DNA of 17,426 nucleotides, taken from IMG/VR virus record IMGVR_UViG_3300000292_000062; one strand, given 5' to 3'. Each line of letters opens with the position of its first letter. Within the stretch, counting starts at the first letter, position 1. Both the position numbers and the translations under genes were made by a program. Below are positions 1,821 through 17,426 of the stretch, one piece after another. The notes beneath the pieces are model-generated. The model was not told the DNA's origin and searched no databases. It saw only the letters and a list, made by a program, of their open reading frames with translations. The DNA is from a virus (lineage: Duplodnaviria > Heunggongvirae > Uroviricota > Caudoviricetes).

Positions 1821-4800
1821 TACCGATATGCTCCACTTAACCGACCACCATCACGGGCCTGCTGTTGCATAAAGTCCGCTGCCGCTTTTTTCCCAAGGTC
1901 ATAAACCACCTTCAGGGCAGCAGGACCTATCTGCCCGTTCGTGCCATCGTTATTGATCTCGATGTTGTACTGCGGGGCAAACATCGCCATACCTGAACCA
2001 CCAATATCCGCCACAACCCCCAGCTTACCGTCAGCACCACGACGCAGTGGCAGAATGGCTTCAGGTCCAGCTTCCCCCATCACACCCGCGCCTTTTGCAA
2101 AAGCAAAAAACGTCGGACGGTTAACCACCGTGCCACTGTAGCGACTCAAATCAGCCGACTGATAAACACCGCCATCAGCATTGGCTACAAAATCAAAAGG
2201 CAGCGCGGAAGCAATGCCTTTTACCGCTTTCATTAAAGCTATCTGAGCCATGATTCTGGACATATCTGACAGCACAGAAGAGGTGAAGGATTTGAAATTG
2301 AGTTTGCCTGTAGTACAGAATGTCGCCAGCCAGTCACTCATGCTACTGAACGCAGACGTGAACAACTGTTCCACTGTCCCGGCTGTGTTATCCGCATTCT
2401 CAGTGACATTCTGGAGTGCACGCAGGACTCCGTTTTTCCAATTACCCTGAGCAATTTCAAGCCGTTGCCAGTAACGGCGATTCTCATTCAGTTGTCGGTT
2501 CAGACTCTCCGTCAGCGCCTGCTCGGCCTTTCTGTAGTCATCCGTGTTATATGTCCCTTTCTGCTCACTATCCCGCCTCAACTGCTCCAGCTGTTGCTGG
2601 TATTTCTGGCGAAGACTCAGTTGTACCTGATATCGCTGCCGCTGCTGATCACCCATACCCACCGTGGCGATATCCAGGTCATGTTGCTGACGCTGAGCGC
2701 GCTCTTCTTCAGCCAGTTGACTGGTCAGCTGAATTGTTTTTTTCTTCAGATCGTTGAGTGCCGTCTGTTTCTGAAGCTCCTGCTGTTTTACATCCAGCAG
2801 CGTCAGTGCCTGAATCAGTTCATCTTTACGGGCCAGCACACTCTTTTCATCTGCCGTCAGTTTTTTCCCGTCCAGATCGCTGATGCGCTGCTGCAGAGCC
2901 AGAAGCTGTTTATGCGCTTCTGTCATCTTTTCAGTGGCAATGCCTGCTGACTGTCTTGCAGCAGCAATCTGTCCTTCCACCTGTGCCTGTTGCTGACTGT
3001 ACTGCAGCAATAACCGGGTGGCCTCATCATTACGGGTTTCGCGTGTTTTTTTCTTACCGGATGCCAGGGCTTTCTCGTAACGTTCATTTTCACGTTGTAT
3101 CGCCGCATCCCTGACAGCCTGATCGGCGTACTGCATGGCATTAATACGCGCAATTTCACGCTGATGTCGTGCAGCTTCCGTTTCATTCATCCGGTTCAGT
3201 GCAGCATTTTCAGCATTACGGCGTTTCTGTTGCTCCTGATAATTCCGCTCTGCCTGCTCTTTTGCATCCTGCAAATCCTTCTGGCGTTTTTTCTCCTGAA
3301 GATCGTTAAGACGCTGCTGATCGTATTCAACCTGAGAAGATGATGCCGTCCAGGGGAGTCTTTTCGCCCGCGACACTTTCTCCTGCAAAGTGGCAATCTG
3401 CGCATCCAGCGAATCTTCACGACCAATATTCATGGCCGCATCCCAGAACTGCTTCCACCAGTCAGACAAAGTTTGCAGCGTACTGCCCAGCGCATTGAGG
3501 TTATTATCAATATCCGCAGTACGCCGACCGGTTTCCTCTGCCAGTGCAGACATGGCTATCCGTGCCGCATCACTGGACCGCCCCTGCTCTCCAAGGACGC
3601 GTATCTGCTCAAGCTGAGTGGCAGTAAGAAAATGCAGCTCATTGTCCAGAGACTTCGCGGCATTTACAGGATCATCCTTCAGCCGCTTAAACTGATTTAT
3701 GGTATCGCTGACCGACTGGCCAACCGATCGCTCCATCTGTGCGGCAGCTCTCGCCACCATACCGATATCGTTTCCACGAAATGCACCACTCCCCACCACC
3801 TGAGCCAGCGCACCGGCTGCAGCATGTTGCGTGATACCATTCCCGGAAATAGCACGACTGAGCGTCCACAGCTGCCCGGCAGTGACTCCGGCATAATGCC
3901 CCGTCAGCGACAGCTGGCGGTTAAATTCTTCCCCCTCCTTCTGACCGTCATACCAGGCTTTACCCAGGCCATAGACAGCCGCGGCAATACCGCCAATAAC
4001 CCCGCCAAGCATCATGCCTTTCGGTGACATCAATGTGTCTATCCACCCGGCACGGTTAGCCAGCGTTATTCCGGATCCCCTCAGCGCACCTAAATTTCCG
4101 CGGGCCAGTTCACCTATCAGAACGCCTATCTCCTGACGGGCCGCTGCACTTTTCAGCCCCAGCGAATGCGTGGCTTTTCCTGCCTGCTCCATTTTGCGGA
4201 TATACACTTCTGCAGCACTGCTTACCCCCAGCTGGGCAGCCTTGGCACGAAGCAACTCAGAAGAAGAAAGATTCTGGCGGGTTGCCTGCTCTTTAAGCTG
4301 ACGGATAAACGCCACTTTCTGTCGGGTAGCCTCTTCCTCAGCCTGTGTAAGAACACGGGTTTTCGCCGTAACCTCAGAAATCAGCGCCAGATAATCCTGC
4401 TGACCAATCCCGCCACTGTTTCTGGCCTGNNNNNNNNNNNNNNNNNNNNNNNNNNNNNNNNNNNNNNNNNNNNNNNNNNNNNNNNNNNNNNNNNNNNNNN
4501 NNNNNNNNNNNNNNNNNNNNNNNNNNNNNNNNNNNNNNNGCAGACCCGCACTGGCCTGTTTCACACTGTCAATCTGACGATAAAACGCAGCAGCCGCTTT
4601 ATCCTGAGCCTCCGCCAGAGCCATGGCCTGCGCCTGTTCCTCGCGCATTTTCTGGCTCAGCGCCTCCATACGCTGGCGGGTTTTCTCCACCTCGCGGGCC
4701 ATGCGTTCATGAGCCTGTGCGTTCTTCTCCACCGTCTGCGCATGGACGGATGCGGCTGTTGCAGCCGAAGACGCCGCCTGCGTTGTCTGCCGGGCGGCCT

Positions 4801-11611: not shown

Positions 11612-11823
11612 CAGAACCTCGCCAGCCGGTACCCGGGATGCCCCCGTCGTCGTGTAATCAGAGCCGCAAGGCGGCGCTCCCACTCCTGCCGCCCCTGCCG
11701 GATCTCAGATAAGTTTTCCATGGTCATCTGCTGACCATTAAAAGTGACGGATTTTCCGTCCAGCACTGCCATTTCAGCTTCCGTATAACGCTGAATCATG
11801 GCTTCAATATCATTCTGATTCAT
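11611..11823 (-). CDS. W: Head-tail joining protein (gpW-like)
   Basis: About 70 aa between large terminase and portal, as lambda W. C-terminal RRRGHPGY resembles lambda gpW ...QRRRGPAGF. ATG overlaps the TerL stop (ATGA). Confidence 0.65.
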   Translation of the reverse strand: MNQNDIEAMIQRYTEAEMAVLDGKSVTFNGQQMTMENLSEIRQGRQEWERRLAALITRRRGHPGYRLARF

Positions 11824-13922
11824 AACCATCCTCCGGAAGTCAGCCAGGGGTTAACATCGTCAGTTACTGTTTTCTTCCGTTTTTGTTTTTTAACAGGCGT
11901 GGATACCGGTTCCGGTGTGGGTGACGGTTCGGTACTGTCCGGGACACACTCCAGCCAGGTTTCCCGGCTCGCCCACTCCGGTGCATCCGGCCAGCGGATC
12001 TTTTCGTATCCATGCAGAATGACCAGAGCCTCGGCATACACCATCAGGTCAAAAGCTTCGTTGGCACCGCGACCCGGCTTACTCCATTTCCCGTCACTGC
12101 TCCGCTCTTCATACGTCAGTTCGTCGTAAAACCAGCTCCCCAGCCAGTCAGGGAAATGCACATAGCCGGGACCTGGCGAGTCACGCCATAACGCGTTATT
12201 CACCCGGTCTTTCAGGGCATCCGTCTGAAGAAGCCAGAGCGGTACATCACCTGCGGCCTGCGCCCGTCGGCCCGTTCGTCCGGTGTTATCAGGGAATGTA
12301 CGGGTGATCAGTTTTGCGCGCCGGATGCTGTCGCCCTTAAACAGGTAAATACGTTTACCAAGGCCATCACGACGGCAACGACGCCAGAATTTATAGGCAT
12401 TATCAGTGACCCCGTCTTCACCGCCGGAGTCCACCGCCATTGCCATCAGTCGCATTTGTTGAGAAGGATCGGAGGCCAGCGGCCAGCTTTTATGAAAAAC
12501 ATCCGTCAGCAGGACATCCCAGTCTTCCGGATAGCTGGCCGGATCAATTCGCTGGCTCTCCCCGTCGCTGTCACCGCGCAATGACTGCGTGATGTTGTAA
12601 CGATCAATAATCCAGCGTTCGCCACGGCTGCCATAGCCCGTTACCTGAACCACAAAACGGCGATGAAGTCCCGCCTGCACATCCACTGTCGCCACAAGGA
12701 AATTAACGCCATCCGGAACACTGCGGGAAGGAACTGGCTCTGCCCGCTGCTCAAGCAATTCACTTTTTCGTTGCTCCATGCTGGCGCGGGGAAGATAAGG
12801 TAATCCCCAGTCTGTATTGATAACCGTCTTGAGTGTCTCTTCACTTCCGGTTGTCTCGTATTCCTGTTCTGCAGTAAGCAGTTTGTAAACGAGTTGCGAG
12901 AGTGTCTGATAAGCAGCTGCCGGCCCCTCCATCCAGAATGACGCAATACGTGAACGCCGGGGATCACCATAACGACTGCCATCTGCATTGATGGATTCAC
13001 CATCCCGTAACCAGACCCCACGTCCGTTCAGCTCGCGTTTTTGTTCAGGCAAAATCCGTCCTGAACAGGAAGGACACTGAATATAAGCCGCCTCACTTGC
13101 CAGCACAGGATCGGCAATATCACGGAAACCAGCAACCACATCGCCGCAGGGCTGAAAATACTCACCACAGTGTGGACAGGGCCAGTACCAGCGACGGCGA
13201 TCGCCACGGTTATAGAGCGACAGGATCCCCGTGGTTGGTGGAGCCTCATGCGGTGAAGTCCGTCGCCATTTCACATCCTTCACATCCCTGCCGGGGGAAC
13301 TCTCCACCAGCGTCATACCACTGGACATAAATGTGGTGGTACGTTTTGAGGCAAGAGAGAAGGCATCCCCCTCACCATCAATATCTTCCGGAAAACGGTC
13401 ATAATCCGTCAGCGCCACGCATTTATAATCTGATGAAGACATGATATTGACTGACGGCCAGCCGATTTTCAGGTAGTTGCCAGCAAGGAATGTTCTGTCA
13501 TAAACGTTGTTGTCATTTTTGTTCGGACTCAGGCGACTGACCACTTCCGGGCTGACGCGAAACGTTCTGGCGAGTCGTTTTTTGGAGTGTTCGCGGGCTT
13601 TTTCCTCCGTCATCTGAATGATCAGCATATCAGCAGGATCGCAAATCACGTTGTAAATCACCCAGCCGTCAATCAGGCCGATAGTCTTGCCGGTTCGTGC
13701 CGGGCCAACAAATATCACTGCGTCGTATTCACGCGAGGCCAGGCAGTTCATAGGCTCAATAACATACGGTGCCACCAGCGGATCCCACGGGACTGAGTTC
13801 CCTGCCCCCATGGGCACCCGCATATACTGAGCAACGGCATCAGCAACCCGCATTCGTCTCGGTGCGCGAAGGATATAACCTGAATCGGTTCGTGCTGCCT
13901 TTGCGGTTTCCTGATTCAGCAT
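11820..13922 (-). CDS. Terminase large subunit (gpA family)
   Basis: 700 aa; Walker A-like GPARTGKT near the N-terminus; WPCPHCGEY resembles the lambda gpA ACPHCGEE zinc-ribbon-like motif. Coupled to TerS upstream and W downstream. Confidence 0.85.
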   Translation of the reverse strand: MLNQETAKAARTDSGYILRAPRRMRVADAVAQYMRVPMGAGNSVPWDPLVAPYVIEPMNCLASREYDAVIFVGPARTGKTIGLIDGWVIYNVICDPADMLIIQMTEEKAREHSKKRLARTFRVSPEVVSRLSPNKNDNNVYDRTFLAGNYLKIGWPSVNIMSSSDYKCVALTDYDRFPEDIDGEGDAFSLASKRTTTFMSSGMTLVESSPGRDVKDVKWRRTSPHEAPPTTGILSLYNRGDRRRWYWPCPHCGEYFQPCGDVVAGFRDIADPVLASEAAYIQCPSCSGRILPEQKRELNGRGVWLRDGESINADGSRYGDPRRSRIASFWMEGPAAAYQTLSQLVYKLLTAEQEYETTGSEETLKTVINTDWGLPYLPRASMEQRKSELLEQRAEPVPSRSVPDGVNFLVATVDVQAGLHRRFVVQVTGYGSRGERWIIDRYNITQSLRGDSDGESQRIDPASYPEDWDVLLTDVFHKSWPLASDPSQQMRLMAMAVDSGGEDGVTDNAYKFWRRCRRDGLGKRIYLFKGDSIRRAKLITRTFPDNTGRTGRRAQAAGDVPLWLLQTDALKDRVNNALWRDSPGPGYVHFPDWLGSWFYDELTYEERSSDGKWSKPGRGANEAFDLMVYAEALVILHGYEKIRWPDAPEWASRETWLECVPDSTEPSPTPEPVSTPVKKQKRKKTVTDDVNPWLTSGGWL

Positions 13923-14413
13923 TACTCCTCCTGCTGTAATTCCTCCTCATCATCCGCACCTGCTTCGGTCACCCGCAGGGCTATCTGATCGCGCAGATCA
14001 TCAATAATGGACTGAACACGGCTCACAGCGGCAGGCTGCAGGCCGCAGTCACGTTCCAGAATATCCGGTAATGTCTCCAGCACCTGCACGACCGCTTTTG
14101 CCCAGATGGCAAACTCCCGTCTGACATCACTGGCCGGAATGAGTTGTGCCGTTTCCTGTTCGAACTTAAGACGCTCACGTTCAGACTGATACCAGGCTTT
14201 GCGTTCATGTGGATCCATTTCGCCCTCAGCAACCGGCGGTGGTAACCCCATAAATTCAGTCAGAATATCGGTCAACCGGTATAGCTTGAGTTTGTCATGT
14301 CCACCAGCGGGACGAATGTTTTTCAGTCTTGCCACGACAGTCTGGCGGTGCAGACCAGATAAAGCCGCCAGTTGATTAATATTCAGCACCAGGTTTTTCA
14401 ACTCATGATCCAT
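13922..14413 (-). CDS. Terminase small subunit (Nu1-like, N-terminal winged HTH)
   Basis: 163 aa. N-terminus INQLAALSGLHRQTVVARLKNIRPAG is HTH-like, comparable to lambda Nu1 KKQLADIFGASIRTIQNWQEQGMPV; acidic C-terminus. Sits directly upstream of TerL with a 1-nt overlap; GGAGG RBS 5 nt before the ATG at 14411-14413. Confidence 0.75.
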   Translation of the reverse strand: MDHELKNLVLNINQLAALSGLHRQTVVARLKNIRPAGGHDKLKLYRLTDILTEFMGLPPPVAEGEMDPHERKAWYQSERERLKFEQETAQLIPASDVRREFAIWAKAVVQVLETLPDILERDCGLQPAAVSRVQSIIDDLRDQIALRVTEAGADDEEELQQEE

Positions 14414-14701: not shown

Positions 14702-14932
14702 TCACAGCATGCCCACACAAATTAGTGTGAGTGTCCTGTTTCTTCCACCCCCGCACAGGACTGGCGAGCATGAGGGACAACCCCGCGAACCATAACCGCG
14801 CTGATGACAGGACTGGCCCGGCTTGTATTGCTTCCAGCCTTCGCTTTTGTGGCTTTTGCAATAGCCTGACGGATCTGTGGTGGTATTGCGGTAGCCGCGA
14901 ACACGGCAGGTTTTTGGGGTTCGTGGGGGCAT
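14702..14932 (-). CDS. Hypothetical small Cys-rich protein (76 aa), uncertain
   Basis: ATG at 14930-14932 preceded by GGAG at 5-nt spacing. Translation MPPRTPKTCRVRGYRNTTTDPSGYCKSHKSEGWKQYKPGQSCHQRGYGSRGCPSCSPVLCGGG... has 7 Cys. It lies in a GC-rich island where three frames are open, so it could be spurious. Confidence 0.25.
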   Translation of the reverse strand: MPPRTPKTCRVRGYRNTTTDPSGYCKSHKSEGWKQYKPGQSCHQRGYGSRGCPSCSPVLCGGGRNRTLTLICVGML

Positions 14933-15154
14933 ATGTACTCCAATGAAGAAGCCACCAACATAGCCTCCTCCATTCATCGTGAAACTATTTTCATCTACCC
15001 AGTAATGAATTCTTTGAAGAGTTGTGATCAATACAACTCGCTAATGGAGAGGCTTGTCTCACACGTGAGACAAGCTTCCTGTTTGATTTACTGGACAGTA
15101 TAGGAGGACAGAATGCCTTCCTCACTCGAATAACATCAATTAAGGAGGTTCAAC

Positions 15155-15637: not shown

Positions 15638-15721
15638 NNNNNNNNNNNNNNNNNNNNNNNNNNNNNNNNNNNNNNNNNNNNNNNNNNNNNNNNNNNNNNN
15701 NNNNNNNNNNNNNNNNNNNNN
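15638..15721. other. Assembly gap or masked bases (84 N) covering the 3' ends of Rz and Rz1
   Basis: Run of N seen directly. Confidence 0.95.
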
Positions 15722-16112
15722 TACCGAGAACGTTTCGTCCAGCAACTGGAGAGAGTTCGACGGTGGCATCATTGCCCATGCCGGAGGCGCTGGAGGTTTC
15801 GGCTGAGGATGGCACAGGGCATTTTCCTTTGACGAACACCCGACCACCATTATCAAGCTTGCGCCGAAGAGCATCATTTTTAGCTTTCGCATCAGCTAAC
15901 TCCTTCGTGTATTTAGCATCGAGTGCATCAGCAGCACGCTGGCGCTGCTGCATGTCAGTAATGGTGGCGGTCGCCTGCTTCAGCTCACTGACTTTTTTAT
16001 CACGCTGTTCTTTATAGGCGATGGCGTTATCACGGTAATGATTGACCGCCCACGACAGGCAGACGATGATGCAGATAACCAGAGCATAAATAATCGCGGC
16101 GACTCTGCTCAC
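15638..16112 (-). CDS. Rz: Spanin inner-membrane subunit Rz (i-spanin); 3' end lies within the N run
   Basis: Translation [39 protein letters not shown]...[19 protein letters not shown] is near-identical to lambda Rz as recalled. Probable GTG start at 16110-16112 overlaps the R stop (GTGA), replacing lambda's ATG. The ORF-track extension to 15492 beyond the gap is rejected. Confidence 0.85.
15722..15892 (-). CDS. Rz1: Spanin outer-membrane lipoprotein Rz1 (o-spanin), embedded in Rz in the +1 frame; 3' end in the N run
   Basis: [44 protein letters not shown]... has a lipobox (VVGC) and a proline-rich core like lambda Rz1 (MLKLKMML...VVGCTSK...KPPPPPAW). ATG at 15890-15892. Confidence 0.75.
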
Positions 16113-16642
16113 TGATCTATCCCCCAACAGGCTAATGCGCTTTCCTGGTCACGACGAATAACTTGCCCATAGCAGTTATTTGAACGTATGCGGCAATCGC
16201 GCCCACCATCTTTTATCCACCAACGAATCGCCTCACATGCACCCTTACGATCACCGGCATTCAGCCGCTTATAAAACGTCGACGGGAAACACTTACCAGG
16301 GCCAATGTTATAGGGACAGAATGACGCGATACCGGCTTTCTGTGGCTCGGTCAGTGGAACTTTTATATTGCGCTCCACCCATGCCAGCGCCTTATCCCGC
16401 TCAATGGCGTTAACCTGGGCGCATTTTTCCTTCGACAGTTTCATTCCCGGAATAACAGGTTTACCGTCCACCATCGTTGCTCCCCGACAGATGGTCCATA
16501 TGCCGGAGCCATCGCGGTATGCAGTGGTGTGATTCCCCTCTTTTTCATCCAGAAACTGATCGAGAATGTCAGGGGCAGGAGCACTGGCGGCAATCAGTGC
16601 CAGAACAGCAGCCGACAGGCTGTATCTGATTTTTACGTTCAT
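16109..16642 (-). CDS. R: Phage endolysin, lysozyme type (T4-lysozyme-like), with a hydrophobic N-terminal signal or SAR segment
   Basis: 177 aa; [56 protein letters not shown]... closely resembles the 177-aa lysozymes of lambdoid prophages (E. coli Qin RrrQ and Stx-phage R, as recalled). Immediately upstream of Rz. Confidence 0.9.
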
Positions 16643-16755
16643 GGATATTTATCAGGATTTATCGGCTTCAAATCCCCGGATATGTTAAATCTTACCTCAC
16701 CAGTGATGGGCACTGGCGGGAGGAGGATGTCAATCTGATAAACACAGAGGTGACT

Positions 16756-17016
16756 ATGGATTACACAAATCTACCAAAACAAACTTTTGCTGATTTAATC
16801 GCACTCAGGCAAGCAGTCGTAGCTCTAATCAACTTGTTGCCGGAGAAGGAAAAGGAATTAGTTAAAGCGCTTCTTAACAGAACTGCCGCCGATTTTTCAT
16901 CATATCCACTGACAGATGACCTTGCGGACCTTCCTGAATTAATTGCAGCGTCCGCCATTAAGCTTACTGAAGAGATTTACCCTCCTCAAAAATCTTCACA
17001 AAATTCCTGCGAGTAA
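16756..17016 (+). CDS. Hypothetical 86-aa acidic protein, unknown function
   Basis: ATG at 16756 with AGAGG 6 nt upstream; strong intrinsic terminator 20 nt after the stop. Translation MDYTNLPKQTFADLIALRQAVVALINLLPEKEKELVKALLNRTAADFSSYPLTDDLADLPELIAASAIKLTEEIYPPQKSSQNSCE has no transmembrane segment. Lies on the strand opposite the late genes, in a segment AT-richer than the phage genes. Confidence 0.45.
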   Translation: MDYTNLPKQTFADLIALRQAVVALINLLPEKEKELVKALLNRTAADFSSYPLTDDLADLPELIAASAIKLTEEIYPPQKSSQNSCE

Positions 17017-17426
17017 CTTCAATGCAATAATCGTAAAACGCCGCAAACTGCTCATCGCGGCGTTTTTTTTCATCTTCAGAAGGGATCAGCACCGACAATT
17101 TTTTATTCAGATCAGCGACGCTGCCCTCCAGTTTTTCAATGGGCGATTCAATATCATCTTTTTCTGACCGCAATGCCGTCGGTGGCGTCTTCAGAGAACC
17201 AGTAATTCTTCCCGGTAGCTTTCCTTTGTAGGTTATCCATACATTCTGCGCCTCTAAAATTACGGGGCGCTTTTCCGGCGACTGCTCATCCCCTTCACAT
17301 AACCCGGCAGCAACATCCAGGAAGACCTGTCTGATGCTCATTCTGGCTGCTGCCTCATAAAACTCCAGCGCGGCACCTTCAACACGGTCCAGCGAGATGT
17401 CCAGGTCAAAAATTTCACCGTCAAAG
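16964..17426 (-). CDS. Hypothetical protein, unknown function, 5'-partial (continues past the window end)
   Basis: The reading frame is open from the window edge for at least 154 codons (...FDGEIFDLDISLDRVEGAALEFYEAAARMSIRQVFLDVAAGLCEGDEQ...EDEKKRRDEQFAAFYDYCIEVTRRNFVKIFEEGKSLQ). The ORF track reports only the internal-Met part. Same orientation as the late operon, in the position where Q/S-proximal genes are expected. Confidence 0.5.
   Translation of the reverse strand, partial: FDGEIFDLDISLDRVEGAALEFYEAAARMSIRQVFLDVAAGLCEGDEQSPEKRPVILEAQNVWITYKGKLPGRITGSLKTPPTALRSEKDDIESPIEKLEGSVADLNKKLSVLIPSEDEKKRRDEQFAAFYDYCIEVTRRNFVKIFEEGKSLQ
17035..17070 (+). terminator. Intrinsic (rho-independent) terminator
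   Basis: AAAACGCCGC - 12-nt loop - GCGGCGTTTT, a 7-10 bp GC-rich stem followed by eight T. Lies 20 nt after the plus-strand ORF stop and inside the 3' coding part of the minus-strand ORF 16964-17426. Confidence 0.6.

What the first reader, a model, noticed from the sequence alone, without database searches (positions are those of the whole stretch)
16756..17426. Convergent, overlapping pair of unknown genes with an intrinsic terminator inside coding sequence
The plus-strand 86-aa acidic ORF (16756-17016; RBS and terminator present) and the minus-strand ORF of at least 154 aa (16964-17426+) overlap by 53 nt tail to tail. The strong terminator hairpin at 17035-17070 lies inside the minus-strand coding region. 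Neither protein resembles the usual lambdoid late-region products (Q, S, R, Rz, Bor). Small convergent gene pairs beside lysis cassettes are typical of prophage accessory islands that carry toxin-antitoxin, superinfection-exclusion or anti-phage defence cargo, so this is a candidate uncharacterised accessory module. Antisense transcription through the overlap could regulate the minus-strand gene.
Basis: inference. Interest (0 to 1): 0.55.

Follow-up and report, generated by a model that had tools for sequence, protein, structure and literature searches.

The report
Backward small gene inside prophage lysis operon
A small, backward-facing gene of unknown function sits inside the cell-bursting genes of an E. 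coli prophage and overlaps tail-to-tail with a lengthened copy of the known gene ydfR; this gene pair also occurs at another site in Salmonella prophages, but nothing suggests it is a toxin or defence system.

Summary
The + ORF is at 16756-17016 (86 aa). A minus ORF runs off the window end. The two overlap by 53 nt, and a strong hairpin followed by T8 (17035-17070) lies inside the minus ORF.

The minus ORF is not an unknown gene. It belongs to the YdfR family (DUF1327), a usual though uncharacterised gene between holin and endolysin in Qin-like lambdoid prophages. Here it is 183 aa because a roughly 70-aa helical tail is fused to it.

The + ORF is a real, already annotated hypothetical gene (WP_001306174, phrog_2572). 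It has diverged relatives (41-57% identity), between-lineage dN/dS of 0.27, and a conserved Shine-Dalgarno sequence and start codon.

Compared with K-12 Qin and the 116-aa YdfR forms, the tail plus the + ORF look like an insertion of about 480 nt with lower GC. The same convergent, overlapping pair with the same hairpin occurs in a second E. coli allele. It also occurs in Salmonella prophages, where the late-strand partner is a free-standing 73-aa gene after Rz.

Best reading: a moron-like, reverse-oriented small gene whose terminator is overprinted by a late gene. I found no toxin-antitoxin, defence or structural homology. The promoter, expression and function are untested. Interest is modest.

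The parts
16756..17016 (+). Small gene: an 86-aa acidic protein predicted to form three helices (WP_001306174.1, phrog_2572).
   Evidence: - Translation.
- Annotated by PGAP as a hypothetical protein.
- PHROG match at E 1e-53.
- Diverged homologues of 93 aa at 41-57% identity.
- Between-lineage dN/dS is 0.27 in this frame, 0.41 in the antisense frame and about 1 in the other frames.
- This frame has the best identity and BLOSUM score and no stops. Its codon-usage log-likelihood is +14, against -4 for the shadow frame.
- AlphaFold2 gives helices at 8-27, 30-48 and 56-74 with pLDDT 72.
16747..16758 (+). Shine-Dalgarno GAGG, a 5-nt spacer, and the ATG of the small gene.
   Evidence: Read from the sequence. 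A Shine-Dalgarno sequence followed by ATG or GTG is kept in all three lineages, although the leaders differ (TAAGGA-N7-ATG/GTG in the other two).
16645..16686 (+). Conserved upstream motif ATATTTATCAGGATTTATCGG (16645-16665), followed by a weak promoter-like pair: TTATCG (16659-16664), 16 nt, TATGTT (16681-16686). Promoter function is unproven.
   Evidence: This stretch is a conserved island in the alignment of the E. coli, L101-type and Salmonella modules. It does not pass the sigma-70 consensus scan. The motif is also present next to the lysozyme gene in E. coli forms that lack the module.
17035..17070 (+). Hairpin of 10 bp with a 12-nt loop, followed by T8. Likely the intrinsic terminator and 3' end of the small-gene transcript. 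It is embedded in codons E-K-K-R-R-D-E-Q-F-A-A-F of the minus-strand gene.
   Evidence: - Folding energy.
- The 8-bp stem core is kept in all three lineages, while the loops and flanks diverge.
- One G:C to A:U compensatory pair arises from non-synonymous changes in the partner (R to H, A to V).
- The T-run is strong only in the E. coli type.
- One stem arm is deleted in the 296-aa YdfR form, which has no small gene.
16964..17016 (.). The 53-nt tail-to-tail overlap, which codes on both strands.
   Evidence: The overlap is kept as 53 nt in the E. coli type and 59 nt in the L101-type and Salmonella lineages.
16964..17179 (-). C-terminal extension of the YdfR-like protein (residues 113-183), including a predicted helical hairpin (residues 123-182). 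This is the 'partner' half of the cassette.
   Evidence: - Absent from the 103-aa K-12 YdfR and the 116-aa forms.
- AlphaFold2 gives helices 123-143 and 147-182 after a disordered linker.
- The equivalent in Salmonella is a free-standing 73-aa gene.
- hhalign gives E 1.6e-5, but over 29 columns only.
- Variants of 169, 171, 176, 180, 183 and 211 aa differ by in-frame indels and all keep the same C-terminus.
- pN/pS is 0.44 in this frame.
17180..17426 (-). DUF1327 (YdfR family) core of the minus-strand gene. It continues about 89 nt beyond the window end, to an ATG just downstream of the class II holin gene.
   Evidence: Pfam PF07041 scores 83.7 bits against a cutoff of 25. The full gene and its neighbours come from an identical chromosome segment. 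350 homologues were found.
16761..16958 (-). A 65-aa antisense ORF opposite the small gene. Judged a non-coding shadow frame.
   Evidence: - Its third codon positions coincide with those of the + ORF, so it tends to stay open.
- No PHROG, Pfam or NCBIfam match.
- The ATG is changed to TTG in 9 of 38 variants, and there is no Shine-Dalgarno sequence.
- It has higher dN/dS and lower similarity than the sense frame, and a negative codon-usage score.
16109..16642 (-). Context: the endolysin gene (lysozyme R / RrrQ-like, 177 aa), the next late gene after the cassette.
   Evidence: Pfam Phage_lysozyme at E 2.6e-24. Annotation.

Best explanation
The region is a moron-like two-gene cassette set into the late lysis operon of a Qin-like lambdoid prophage of E. 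coli.

**Ancestral layout (shown).** The lysis genes run holin, YdfR, endolysin, Rz, tightly packed on one strand.

**What is added here (shown).** About 480 nt of lower-GC DNA lies between the DUF1327 core of ydfR and the endolysin gene. It carries two things:
- On the late strand, a stretch of about 70 codons read in frame as a helical C-terminal tail of YdfR.
- On the opposite strand, a self-contained small gene. It has a leader of about 110 nt, a Shine-Dalgarno sequence and ATG, 86 codons for an acidic three-helix cytoplasmic protein, and a GC-rich hairpin with a U8 run 19 nt after its stop.

The last 17 codons of the small gene and its hairpin are overprinted by the late-strand tail. The two reading frames travel together. 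The same convergent pair, with a 53-59-nt overlap and the same hairpin, occurs in two other settings. One is a rare diverged E. coli allele at the same site. The other is Salmonella prophages, between Rz and the small terminase gene, where the late-strand partner is a separate 73-aa gene.

**How it probably works (inferred).**
- The small gene is transcribed on its own, against the direction of late transcription and probably in the lysogen, as with lambda bor.
- The hairpin ends or stabilises that transcript before it can run antisense into ydfR and the holin gene.
- During lytic growth, Q-modified RNA polymerase reads through the hairpin from the other side and produces the extended YdfR.
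- Converging transcription and the roughly 110 nt of complementary RNA would then make expression of the two genes mutually antagonistic.

**Not known.** The biochemical roles of the small protein and of the YdfR tail, and whether the two proteins bind each other.
For: **Identity and context of the minus gene.** DUF1327 at E 1e-23. The gene order is holin, YdfR, small ORF, lysozyme, Rz.

**Insertion.** K-12 Qin ydfR (103 aa) abuts rrrQ. The 116-aa form leaves only a 63-nt gap and has no small ORF. The alignment shows the extra block. GC is 41-45% in the block against 50-55% in the flanks.

**The small gene is coding.**
- phrog_2572.
- An exhaustive phmmer search found 93-aa relatives at 41-57% identity.
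- Between-lineage dN/dS is 0.27.
- The sense frame does best on identity, BLOSUM score, stops and codon usage.
- The Shine-Dalgarno sequence and start codon are conserved.
- Indels are in frame.

**The pair is conserved and mobile.**
- L101-type allele: a 174-aa YdfR with a different tail plus a 93-aa ORF, overlapping by 59 nt.
- Salmonella: a 73-aa gene after Rz plus a 93-aa convergent ORF, overlapping by 59 nt and next to the terminase gene.
- The E. coli type is in 364 of 5426 complete E. coli genomes, and the L101 type in 8.
- It is present in isolated phages 2H10, PhiR63_1, PhiR5_1 and the PhiR12 series.

**Hairpin.** It is stable. The stem core is kept in all lineages despite 23-28% partner protein identity, with one compensatory pair. 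One arm is missing exactly in the 296-aa form, which lacks the small gene.

**The tail is kept in frame.** Several in-frame indels all end in ...KSLQ.
Against: - No consensus sigma-70 promoter lies upstream of the small gene in any lineage. Independent transcription is therefore inferred, not shown.
- The U-run after the hairpin is strong only in the E. coli type, so termination may not be the conserved role.
- Covariation is too thin to be significant: 2 pairs, and 65 of 500 shuffles do as well.
- Partner homology between lineages is confined to 29 columns around the hairpin. This could reflect nucleic-acid constraint rather than protein constraint.
- Within-lineage dN/dS of the small gene is only about 0.6.
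- Some variants have lost the small gene's start or reading frame. A Shigella/E. coli group has ATG changed to ACG, L077 carries a nonsense codon, and Salmonella L191-196 has a replaced 5' end.
- The conserved upstream motif also occurs in forms without the module.
- I have no expression, interaction or phenotype data.
Confidence: 0.55

Rival explanations
1. The pair is a toxin-antitoxin, superinfection-exclusion or anti-phage defence module. The late-strand helical protein would be harmful, and the convergent small acidic protein or its antisense RNA would neutralise it in the lysogen.
For: - The two genes are conserved together at two different insertion sites.
- A 3' antisense overlap of 53-59 nt plus about 50 nt out to the hairpin resembles 3'-overlapping type I systems.
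- The position in a prophage and the lower GC fit accessory cargo.
- YdfR binds the RNase E catalytic domain and co-purifies with RNA (PMC13232886), so the late protein could act on host RNA.
Against: - No PADLOC, Pfam or NCBIfam match to any toxin, antitoxin or defence family.
- No structural match.
- Neither protein is a small hydrophobic peptide of the type I kind.
- The genes are convergent, not a co-directional operon of the type II kind.
- Overproducing K-12 YdfR, which lacks the tail, changed few transcripts, and no growth arrest was noted for it.
- In some Salmonella variants the partner stays intact while the small gene's 5' end is replaced, with no sign of counter-selection.
Confidence: 0.1
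2. The hairpin's conserved role is on the late (minus-strand) transcript. It could be an RNase III or RNase E processing site, a stability element, or a brake on RNA polymerase not modified by Q that limits leaky endolysin expression. Its position after the small gene's stop would then be incidental.
For: - The minus-strand fold is more stable (-18.8 kcal/mol) and is followed by UUUUACGAUUAUU.
- The + strand U-run is not conserved in the Salmonella and L101 types.
- One rare stem variant (L087) is compatible with G:U pairing only on the minus strand.
- YdfR is linked to RNase E.
Against: - Two other stem variants (L078 in 9 loci, and L086) are compatible with G:U pairing only on the + strand.
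- The hairpin always lies 19-22 nt after the small gene's stop.
- It is absent where the small gene is absent (the 296-aa, 116-aa and 103-aa forms).
- In Salmonella it lies upstream of the packaging genes, where terminating late transcripts would be harmful.
Confidence: 0.15
3. The + ORF is not a functional protein gene. Under this view it is a decaying remnant, or its conservation reflects constraints on the late mRNA between ydfR and R. What matters would be the antisense RNA, or nothing at all.
For: - Within-lineage dN/dS is about 0.5-0.6 and cannot be told apart from the shadow frame.
- The start codon is lost in a widespread Shigella/E. coli group, and there are a nonsense variant and Salmonella variants with a truncated 5' end.
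- No consensus promoter.
- The family is narrow, with three 50%-identity clusters among 1.84 billion representatives.
Against: - Between-lineage dN/dS is 0.27 with saturated dS, and this frame is the best of the six.
- The Shine-Dalgarno sequence and start codon are conserved across 41-57% protein divergence.
- A 7-codon indel is in frame.
- Codon usage favours the sense frame.
- AlphaFold2 predicts a confident helical fold from the single sequence.
- PGAP, Prodigal-type gene callers and PHROGs all call it a gene.
Confidence: 0.12

Closest known systems
YdfR (P76160) of the cryptic prophage Qin, E. coli K-12; Pfam DUF1327 / PF07041
   Same: The N-terminal roughly 110 residues of the minus-strand protein are about 90% identical across the family. 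The gene occupies the same slot between the class II holin (essQ) and the lysozyme (rrrQ). Function is unknown. A 2026 study reports binding to the RNase E catalytic domain and co-purifying RNA (PMC13232886).
   Different: K-12 YdfR is 103 aa and ends at the rrrQ start codon. The window protein is 183 aa, with a disordered linker and a helical-hairpin tail. The tail is encoded by inserted DNA and overlaps a convergent gene.
Morons of lambdoid phages, such as lambda bor (opposite strand, just after Rz) and lom. The concept is from Hendrix and colleagues; this comparison rests on my own knowledge.
   Same: It is an extra gene present in some otherwise collinear phages and absent from others. It lies in the late region beside the lysis genes and is oriented against late transcription. 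It has its own terminator-like hairpin and lower GC. In one module-less relative, bor itself sits after Rz on the opposite strand.
   Different: The product is a cytoplasmic acidic helical protein, not a lipoprotein or outer-membrane protein. No recognisable promoter was found. Its 3' end and terminator are overprinted by a late-strand reading frame that moves with it, so the unit has two genes.
Type I toxin-antitoxin loci with convergent 3' overlap in prophages (B. subtilis txpA/RatA, bsrG/SR4). This comparison rests on my own knowledge.
   Same: Two convergent transcription units in a prophage whose 3' ends overlap by about 100 nt, giving scope for RNA-RNA pairing.
   Different: Both strands here encode soluble helical proteins of 70-90 aa. 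There is no small hydrophobic toxin, and no homology to any toxin-antitoxin family.
Anti-CRISPR AcrIIC4 (88 aa, helical, prophage-encoded)
   Same: Similar size and helical content. A profile of the small-protein family aligns over 62 residues, including an LP...E..K.L......FSS motif.

Membership tests
YdfR family (Pfam DUF1327, PF07041) | Match to the family profile above Pfam's gathering score. | tested here: met
   83.7 bits against a cutoff of 25 for the window fragment. The full-length protein matches phrog_2091 and phrog_406. 350 homologues were found, and most of the 120 listed carry PF07041.
YdfR family (Pfam DUF1327, PF07041) | Position between the class II holin and the endolysin in a lambdoid lysis cassette. 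| tested here: met
   The gene order is shown. The same order holds in K-12 Qin.
Moron (independently transcribed accessory gene in a phage late region) | Present in some and absent from other otherwise collinear phage genomes. | tested here: met
   K-12 Qin, the 116-aa form and the 296-aa form lack the small gene at the same site.
Moron (independently transcribed accessory gene in a phage late region) | Own promoter. | tested here: inconclusive
   There is a conserved upstream motif and a weak TTATCG-N16-TATGTT pair. No consensus sigma-70 site was found in any of the three lineages.
Moron (independently transcribed accessory gene in a phage late region) | Own factor-independent terminator. 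| tested here: met
   A 10-bp GC-rich stem followed by U8, at -14.6 kcal/mol (z -3.7), lies 19 nt after the stop. Caveat: the U-run is weak in the two other lineages.
Moron (independently transcribed accessory gene in a phage late region) | Base composition differs from the neighbouring genes. | tested here: met
   GC is 41-45% across the block and 50-55% in the flanking lysis genes. The difference is modest.
Moron (independently transcribed accessory gene in a phage late region) | Expressed from the repressed prophage. | not testable with these tools
   No transcriptome, ribosome-profiling or proteome data were available here. No paper mentions the gene.
Type II toxin-antitoxin module | A co-directional two-gene operon with a recognisable toxin or antitoxin domain. 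| tested here: not met
   The genes are convergent. No toxin or antitoxin domain appears in Pfam, NCBIfam or PADLOC.
Type I toxin-antitoxin module | A small hydrophobic toxin peptide with an antisense RNA. | tested here: not met
   Both products are soluble, charged and helical. Rfam gives no hit. Only the 3' antisense geometry is shared.
Known anti-phage defence systems (PADLOC-DB) | Match to a defence-protein model. | tested here: not met
   No hit at E up to 0.1 for either protein.
Intrinsic (Rho-independent) terminator | A GC-rich stem-loop directly followed by a U-run, conserved in relatives. | tested here: inconclusive
   Fully met in the window and in the E. coli type. The stem is conserved, but the U-run is degenerate in the Salmonella type (UUUCUGUUC) and the L101 type (UUGUCGCUCAUUU). 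Activity was not measured.

The most novel reading that the evidence does not exclude
The cassette could be a previously unrecognised mobile two-gene switch of enterobacterial lambdoid prophages. A small acidic protein made in the lysogen and a helical protein made late would be encoded tail-to-tail, with the small gene's terminator embedded in and co-evolving with the partner's coding sequence. The late protein may be free-standing or fused to the RNase-E-binding YdfR. The two would antagonise each other through RNA pairing, protein binding or both, to control lysis timing, host RNA decay or superinfection.
Probability: 0.15. Interest if true: 0.6.

Novelty: new member of a known kind. Interest (0 to 1): 0.33.

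Why it matters
If the reading is right, three modest gains follow.

- **Annotation.** PGAP labels the intact 183-aa YdfR-like gene a pseudogene in many E. coli genomes. The cassette is in about 7% of complete E. coli genomes and in viable phages.
- **YdfR biology.** The C-terminus of YdfR turns out to be a hotspot where different modules are fused. YdfR was recently tied to RNase E, so the tail variants are natural tools for studying it.
- **A test case.** The cassette is a compact, experimentally tractable example of a terminator hairpin maintained inside a protein-coding frame on the other strand. Even non-synonymous changes in that frame preserve the stem.

There is so far no link to virulence or defence.

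Tried and rejected
- **Pfam hits for the small protein.** ABATE (E 0.078) and DUF1823 (E 0.11) fall below threshold. The 'DUF1823 containing protein' label in some phage records is therefore not justified.
- **NCBIfam and PADLOC.** Nothing for either protein.
- **Rfam.** No family at gathering score. Only chance-level hits at E 0.17-0.27.
- **Fold searches.**
  - Foldseek against the PDB with the small-protein model gave no hit at E < 9.
- **AcrIIC4.** The sequence resemblance has E about 0.2 and no structural support, so I rejected it.
- **TPR/CHAT hit.** A 975-aa TPR/CHAT protein (P0139) in the exhaustive search is a repeat artefact, and P0142 looks like a corrupted sequence.
- **Loci searches that added little.** A scan of genome contigs returned one E. 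coli locus. A viral-contig scan with the partner alignment returned only near-identical copies. The Salmonella module is not in any named phage of the phage collection.
- **The 65-aa antisense ORF as a late gene.** Considered and rejected.
- **Other ideas for the leader.** I read it by eye for a sigma-54 promoter and for an anti-Shine-Dalgarno pairing. Neither is conserved between lineages.
- **Literature.** Only the RNase E interaction paper bears on YdfR. Nothing covers the small gene. The Gifsy defence gene paper concerns an unrelated ATPase.
Full report
**1. The observation**

The window is the late region of a lambdoid prophage. Almost all genes lie on the minus strand: tail genes, portal, large terminase at 11820-13922, a DUF1441 small terminase at 13922-14413, Rz at about 15645-16112, and the lysozyme gene at 16109-16642.

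Within the finding, every coordinate holds.
- The + ORF runs from the ATG at 16756 to the TAA at 17014-17016, giving 86 aa. GAGG lies 5 nt upstream.
- The minus ORF stops at 16966-16964 and is open to the end of the window, giving 154 codons.
- The overlap is 53 nt.
- The stem 17035-17044 pairs with 17057-17066, followed by eight T. It folds at -14.6 kcal/mol on the + strand and -18.8 kcal/mol on the minus strand. No shuffle out of 200 folds as well.

**2. What the minus ORF is**

It is a YdfR-family protein (Pfam DUF1327, 83.7 bits against a cutoff of 25). An E. coli chromosome that is 100% identical over 827 nt supplies the missing 5' end. The gene is 183 aa and starts 5 nt after a class II holin gene. 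The order is Q ... methyltransferase, holin, YdfR-like, [small + ORF], lysozyme, Rz. CFT073, phage PhiR63_1 and phage PhiR5_1 show the same order.

YdfR is a regular, though uncharacterised, member of Qin-type lysis cassettes. The only functional data I found is a 2026 study. In it, K-12 YdfR bound the catalytic half of RNase E in two-hybrid and pull-down assays and co-purified with RNA. Its overproduction changed few transcripts (PMC13232886).

PGAP labels the gene here a pseudogene 'missing C-terminus', but the ORF is intact.

**3. The family has a constant core and a variable tail**

Homologues come in lengths of 103, 114-116, 169-183, 211, 268 and 296 aa. They share about 110 N-terminal residues and differ after '...SLKTPP'. 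An AlphaFold2 model of the 183-aa form gives three parts:
- a three-strand plus helix domain at residues 1-73;
- a disordered stretch at 71-125;
- a helical hairpin at 123-182.

In K-12 Qin the 103-aa gene ends at the rrrQ start codon. In the 116-aa form only 63 nt separate it from the lysozyme gene, and there is no + ORF. Aligning these forms shows that the window type carries about 480 extra nucleotides, roughly 16710-17180. This block encodes the tail on the minus strand and the small gene on the + strand. The block has 41-45% GC against 50-55% in the flanks.

**4. The + ORF is a real gene**

- It is annotated as hypothetical protein WP_001306174.1 and is phrog_2572 at E 1e-53.
- The word-indexed search found only relatives of at least 85% identity in E. 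coli and Shigella.
- The exhaustive phmmer search of 1.84 billion cluster representatives found two further clusters, P0140 and P0141 (93 aa, 41-57% identity). Loci for both were recovered.
- Between the three lineages the sense frame has dN/dS 0.27 with saturated dS. The antisense frame that shares third positions gives 0.41, and the other frames about 1.
- The sense frame also has the highest identity and BLOSUM score and no stops. A codon-usage log-likelihood trained on the window's own genes gives +14 for the + ORF and -4 for the 65-aa antisense ORF.
- A Shine-Dalgarno sequence and ATG or GTG are kept in all lineages. A 7-codon indel is in frame.
- AlphaFold2 predicts three helices from the single sequence, with pLDDT 72.

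Constraint is not strong. Within lineages dN/dS is about 0.6, and some copies are damaged. A Shigella/E. coli group has ATG changed to ACG, one variant has a nonsense codon, and some Salmonella variants have a replaced 5' end.

**5. The pair is a unit**

In 61 distinct IMG/VR variants of the E. coli type the 53-nt overlap is almost always present.

In the L101-type allele, the holin, the YdfR core and the lysozyme are close to those of the window. This allele is also from E. coli and occurs in 8 of 5426 complete genomes. Its YdfR tail has a different sequence (174 aa in total). A 93-aa convergent ORF overlaps it by 59 nt.

In Salmonella enterica prophages there is no YdfR at all. A free-standing 73-aa gene starts at the stop of the Rz-like gene and overlaps the 93-aa convergent ORF by 59 nt. 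The small terminase gene comes next.

The 73-aa protein aligns with the window tail around '...E(K/Q)KRRDE(Q/N).AA...' and at the C-terminus. hhalign gives E 1.6e-5, but over 29 columns only. In the E. coli type, several in-frame indels (169, 171, 176, 180, 183 and 211 aa) all keep the ending ...KSLQ. This argues that the tail is kept in frame.

The window-type block occurs in 364 of 5426 complete E. coli genomes and in isolated phages.

**6. The hairpin**

In all three lineages a hairpin lies 19-22 nt after the small gene's stop:
- E. coli type: AAAACGCCGC, 12-nt loop, GCGGCGTTTT, then further T.
- Salmonella type: AACGCCGC, 12-nt loop, GCGGCGTT, then TCTGTTC.
- L101 type: AACGCCACC, 10-nt loop, GGTGGCGTT, then GTCGCTCATTT.

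The loops and flanks differ, yet the 8-bp stem core is kept, although the partner proteins are only 23-28% identical. In the L101 type a G:C pair has become A:U through two non-synonymous changes in the partner (KRRDE..AAF to QRHHENGVAF). With so few lineages this covariation is not significant: 2 pairs changed on both sides, and 65 of 500 shuffles do as well.

The 296-aa YdfR form keeps a partner-like stretch. It lacks the 15 nt that make one stem arm and has no small gene. This ties the hairpin to the small gene.

The U-run is strong only in the E. coli type. The conserved role may therefore be 3'-end stabilisation or something on the late strand, rather than termination as such. I keep that as a rival explanation.

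**7. Upstream of the small gene**

No consensus sigma-70 promoter is found in any lineage. There are conserved islands: ATATTTATCAGG(A/C)(T/C)TTATC(G/T)G, a weak TTATCG-N16-TATGTT pair (TTATCT-N16-TATTGT in Salmonella), and GTG(A/G)TGGG(A)CACTG in the leader.

The first motif also sits next to the lysozyme start in E. coli forms without the cassette. Yet it is retained in Salmonella, where no lysozyme gene is adjacent. It may be a regulatory site or a footprint of where the cassette came from. I could not decide between these.

**8. Function**

**9. Verdict**

The best-supported picture is a moron-like, reverse-oriented small gene with its own terminator-like hairpin. It is nested in the late lysis operon and overprinted at its 3' end by a late-strand reading frame that travels with it. 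That frame is fused to YdfR in E. coli and free-standing in Salmonella.

By analogy with lambda bor (my own knowledge), I infer three things:
- expression of the small gene in the lysogen;
- read-through of the hairpin by Q-modified polymerase during lytic growth;
- mutual interference between the two transcripts.

None of these is shown.

The toxin-antitoxin or defence reading is not excluded, but nothing positive supports it. Both genes are already annotated as hypothetical. What is new is modest: recognising the conserved, mobile pair, the fused and free forms of the partner, and the hairpin kept inside a coding frame.

Noticed in passing
window 16645-16665; L099 about 3872-3892; L201 about 2385-2410: A 21-nt motif, ATATTTATCAGGATTTATCGG, has two TTATC copies 10 nt apart. 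It abuts the lysozyme start codon in E. coli forms both with and without the cassette. It is also kept upstream of the small gene in Salmonella, where no lysozyme gene is adjacent. It may be a regulatory site or a footprint of the cassette's origin.
   Followed up: partly
window 16964-17426 (L001 4365-4916; CFT073 C_RS30310): RefSeq/PGAP annotates the intact 183-aa YdfR-like ORF as a pseudogene ('incomplete; missing C-terminus', covering codons 1-112 only). This looks like an annotation artefact caused by the variable tail.
   Followed up: yes
L199 2001-2891 (P0065, 296 aa) and P0104 (268 aa): Another YdfR variant carries a different C-terminal domain of about 120 aa in place of the small gene. 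It keeps a partner-like stretch but lacks 15 nt, which removes one hairpin arm. The C-terminus of YdfR appears to be a hotspot for swapping modules.
   Followed up: partly
window 16761-16958, minus strand: A 65-aa antisense ORF opposite the small gene stays open in all variants, because its third codon positions coincide with those of the + ORF. Equivalent shadow ORFs of 63 and 115 aa exist in the two other lineages. It is not a gene by the tests run.
   Followed up: yes
L191-L196 about 2664-2930 (Salmonella): In some Salmonella prophages the first 13 codons, the Shine-Dalgarno sequence and the upstream region of the small gene are replaced, leaving an 83-codon frame with only a TTG start. The 73-aa partner and the hairpin stay intact.
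   Followed up: partly
window 16757 in variants L043, L056, L063, L068: A Shigella/E. coli group has the small gene's ATG changed to ACG. The same group has a 7-codon in-frame deletion in the YdfR tail (176-aa form, P0025, seen on 463 contigs). This may be loss of the small gene in that lineage.
   Followed up: partly
YdfR residues about 73-111 (window about 17183-17299, minus strand): The stretch CEGDEQSPEKRPIILEAQNVWITYKGKLPGRITGSLKTP is almost invariant across the family, yet AlphaFold2 predicts it as disordered (pLDDT below 40). It could be a binding motif, and the reported RNase E interaction makes that worth testing.
   Followed up: no
window about 14796-14945 (L001 2197-2346) and 15505-15657 (L001 2906-3058): In the identical chromosome record, an HNH endonuclease pseudogene fragment and a 50-aa hypothetical gene lie between Rz and the small terminase gene. 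This is the slot where the Salmonella prophages carry the cassette.
   Followed up: no
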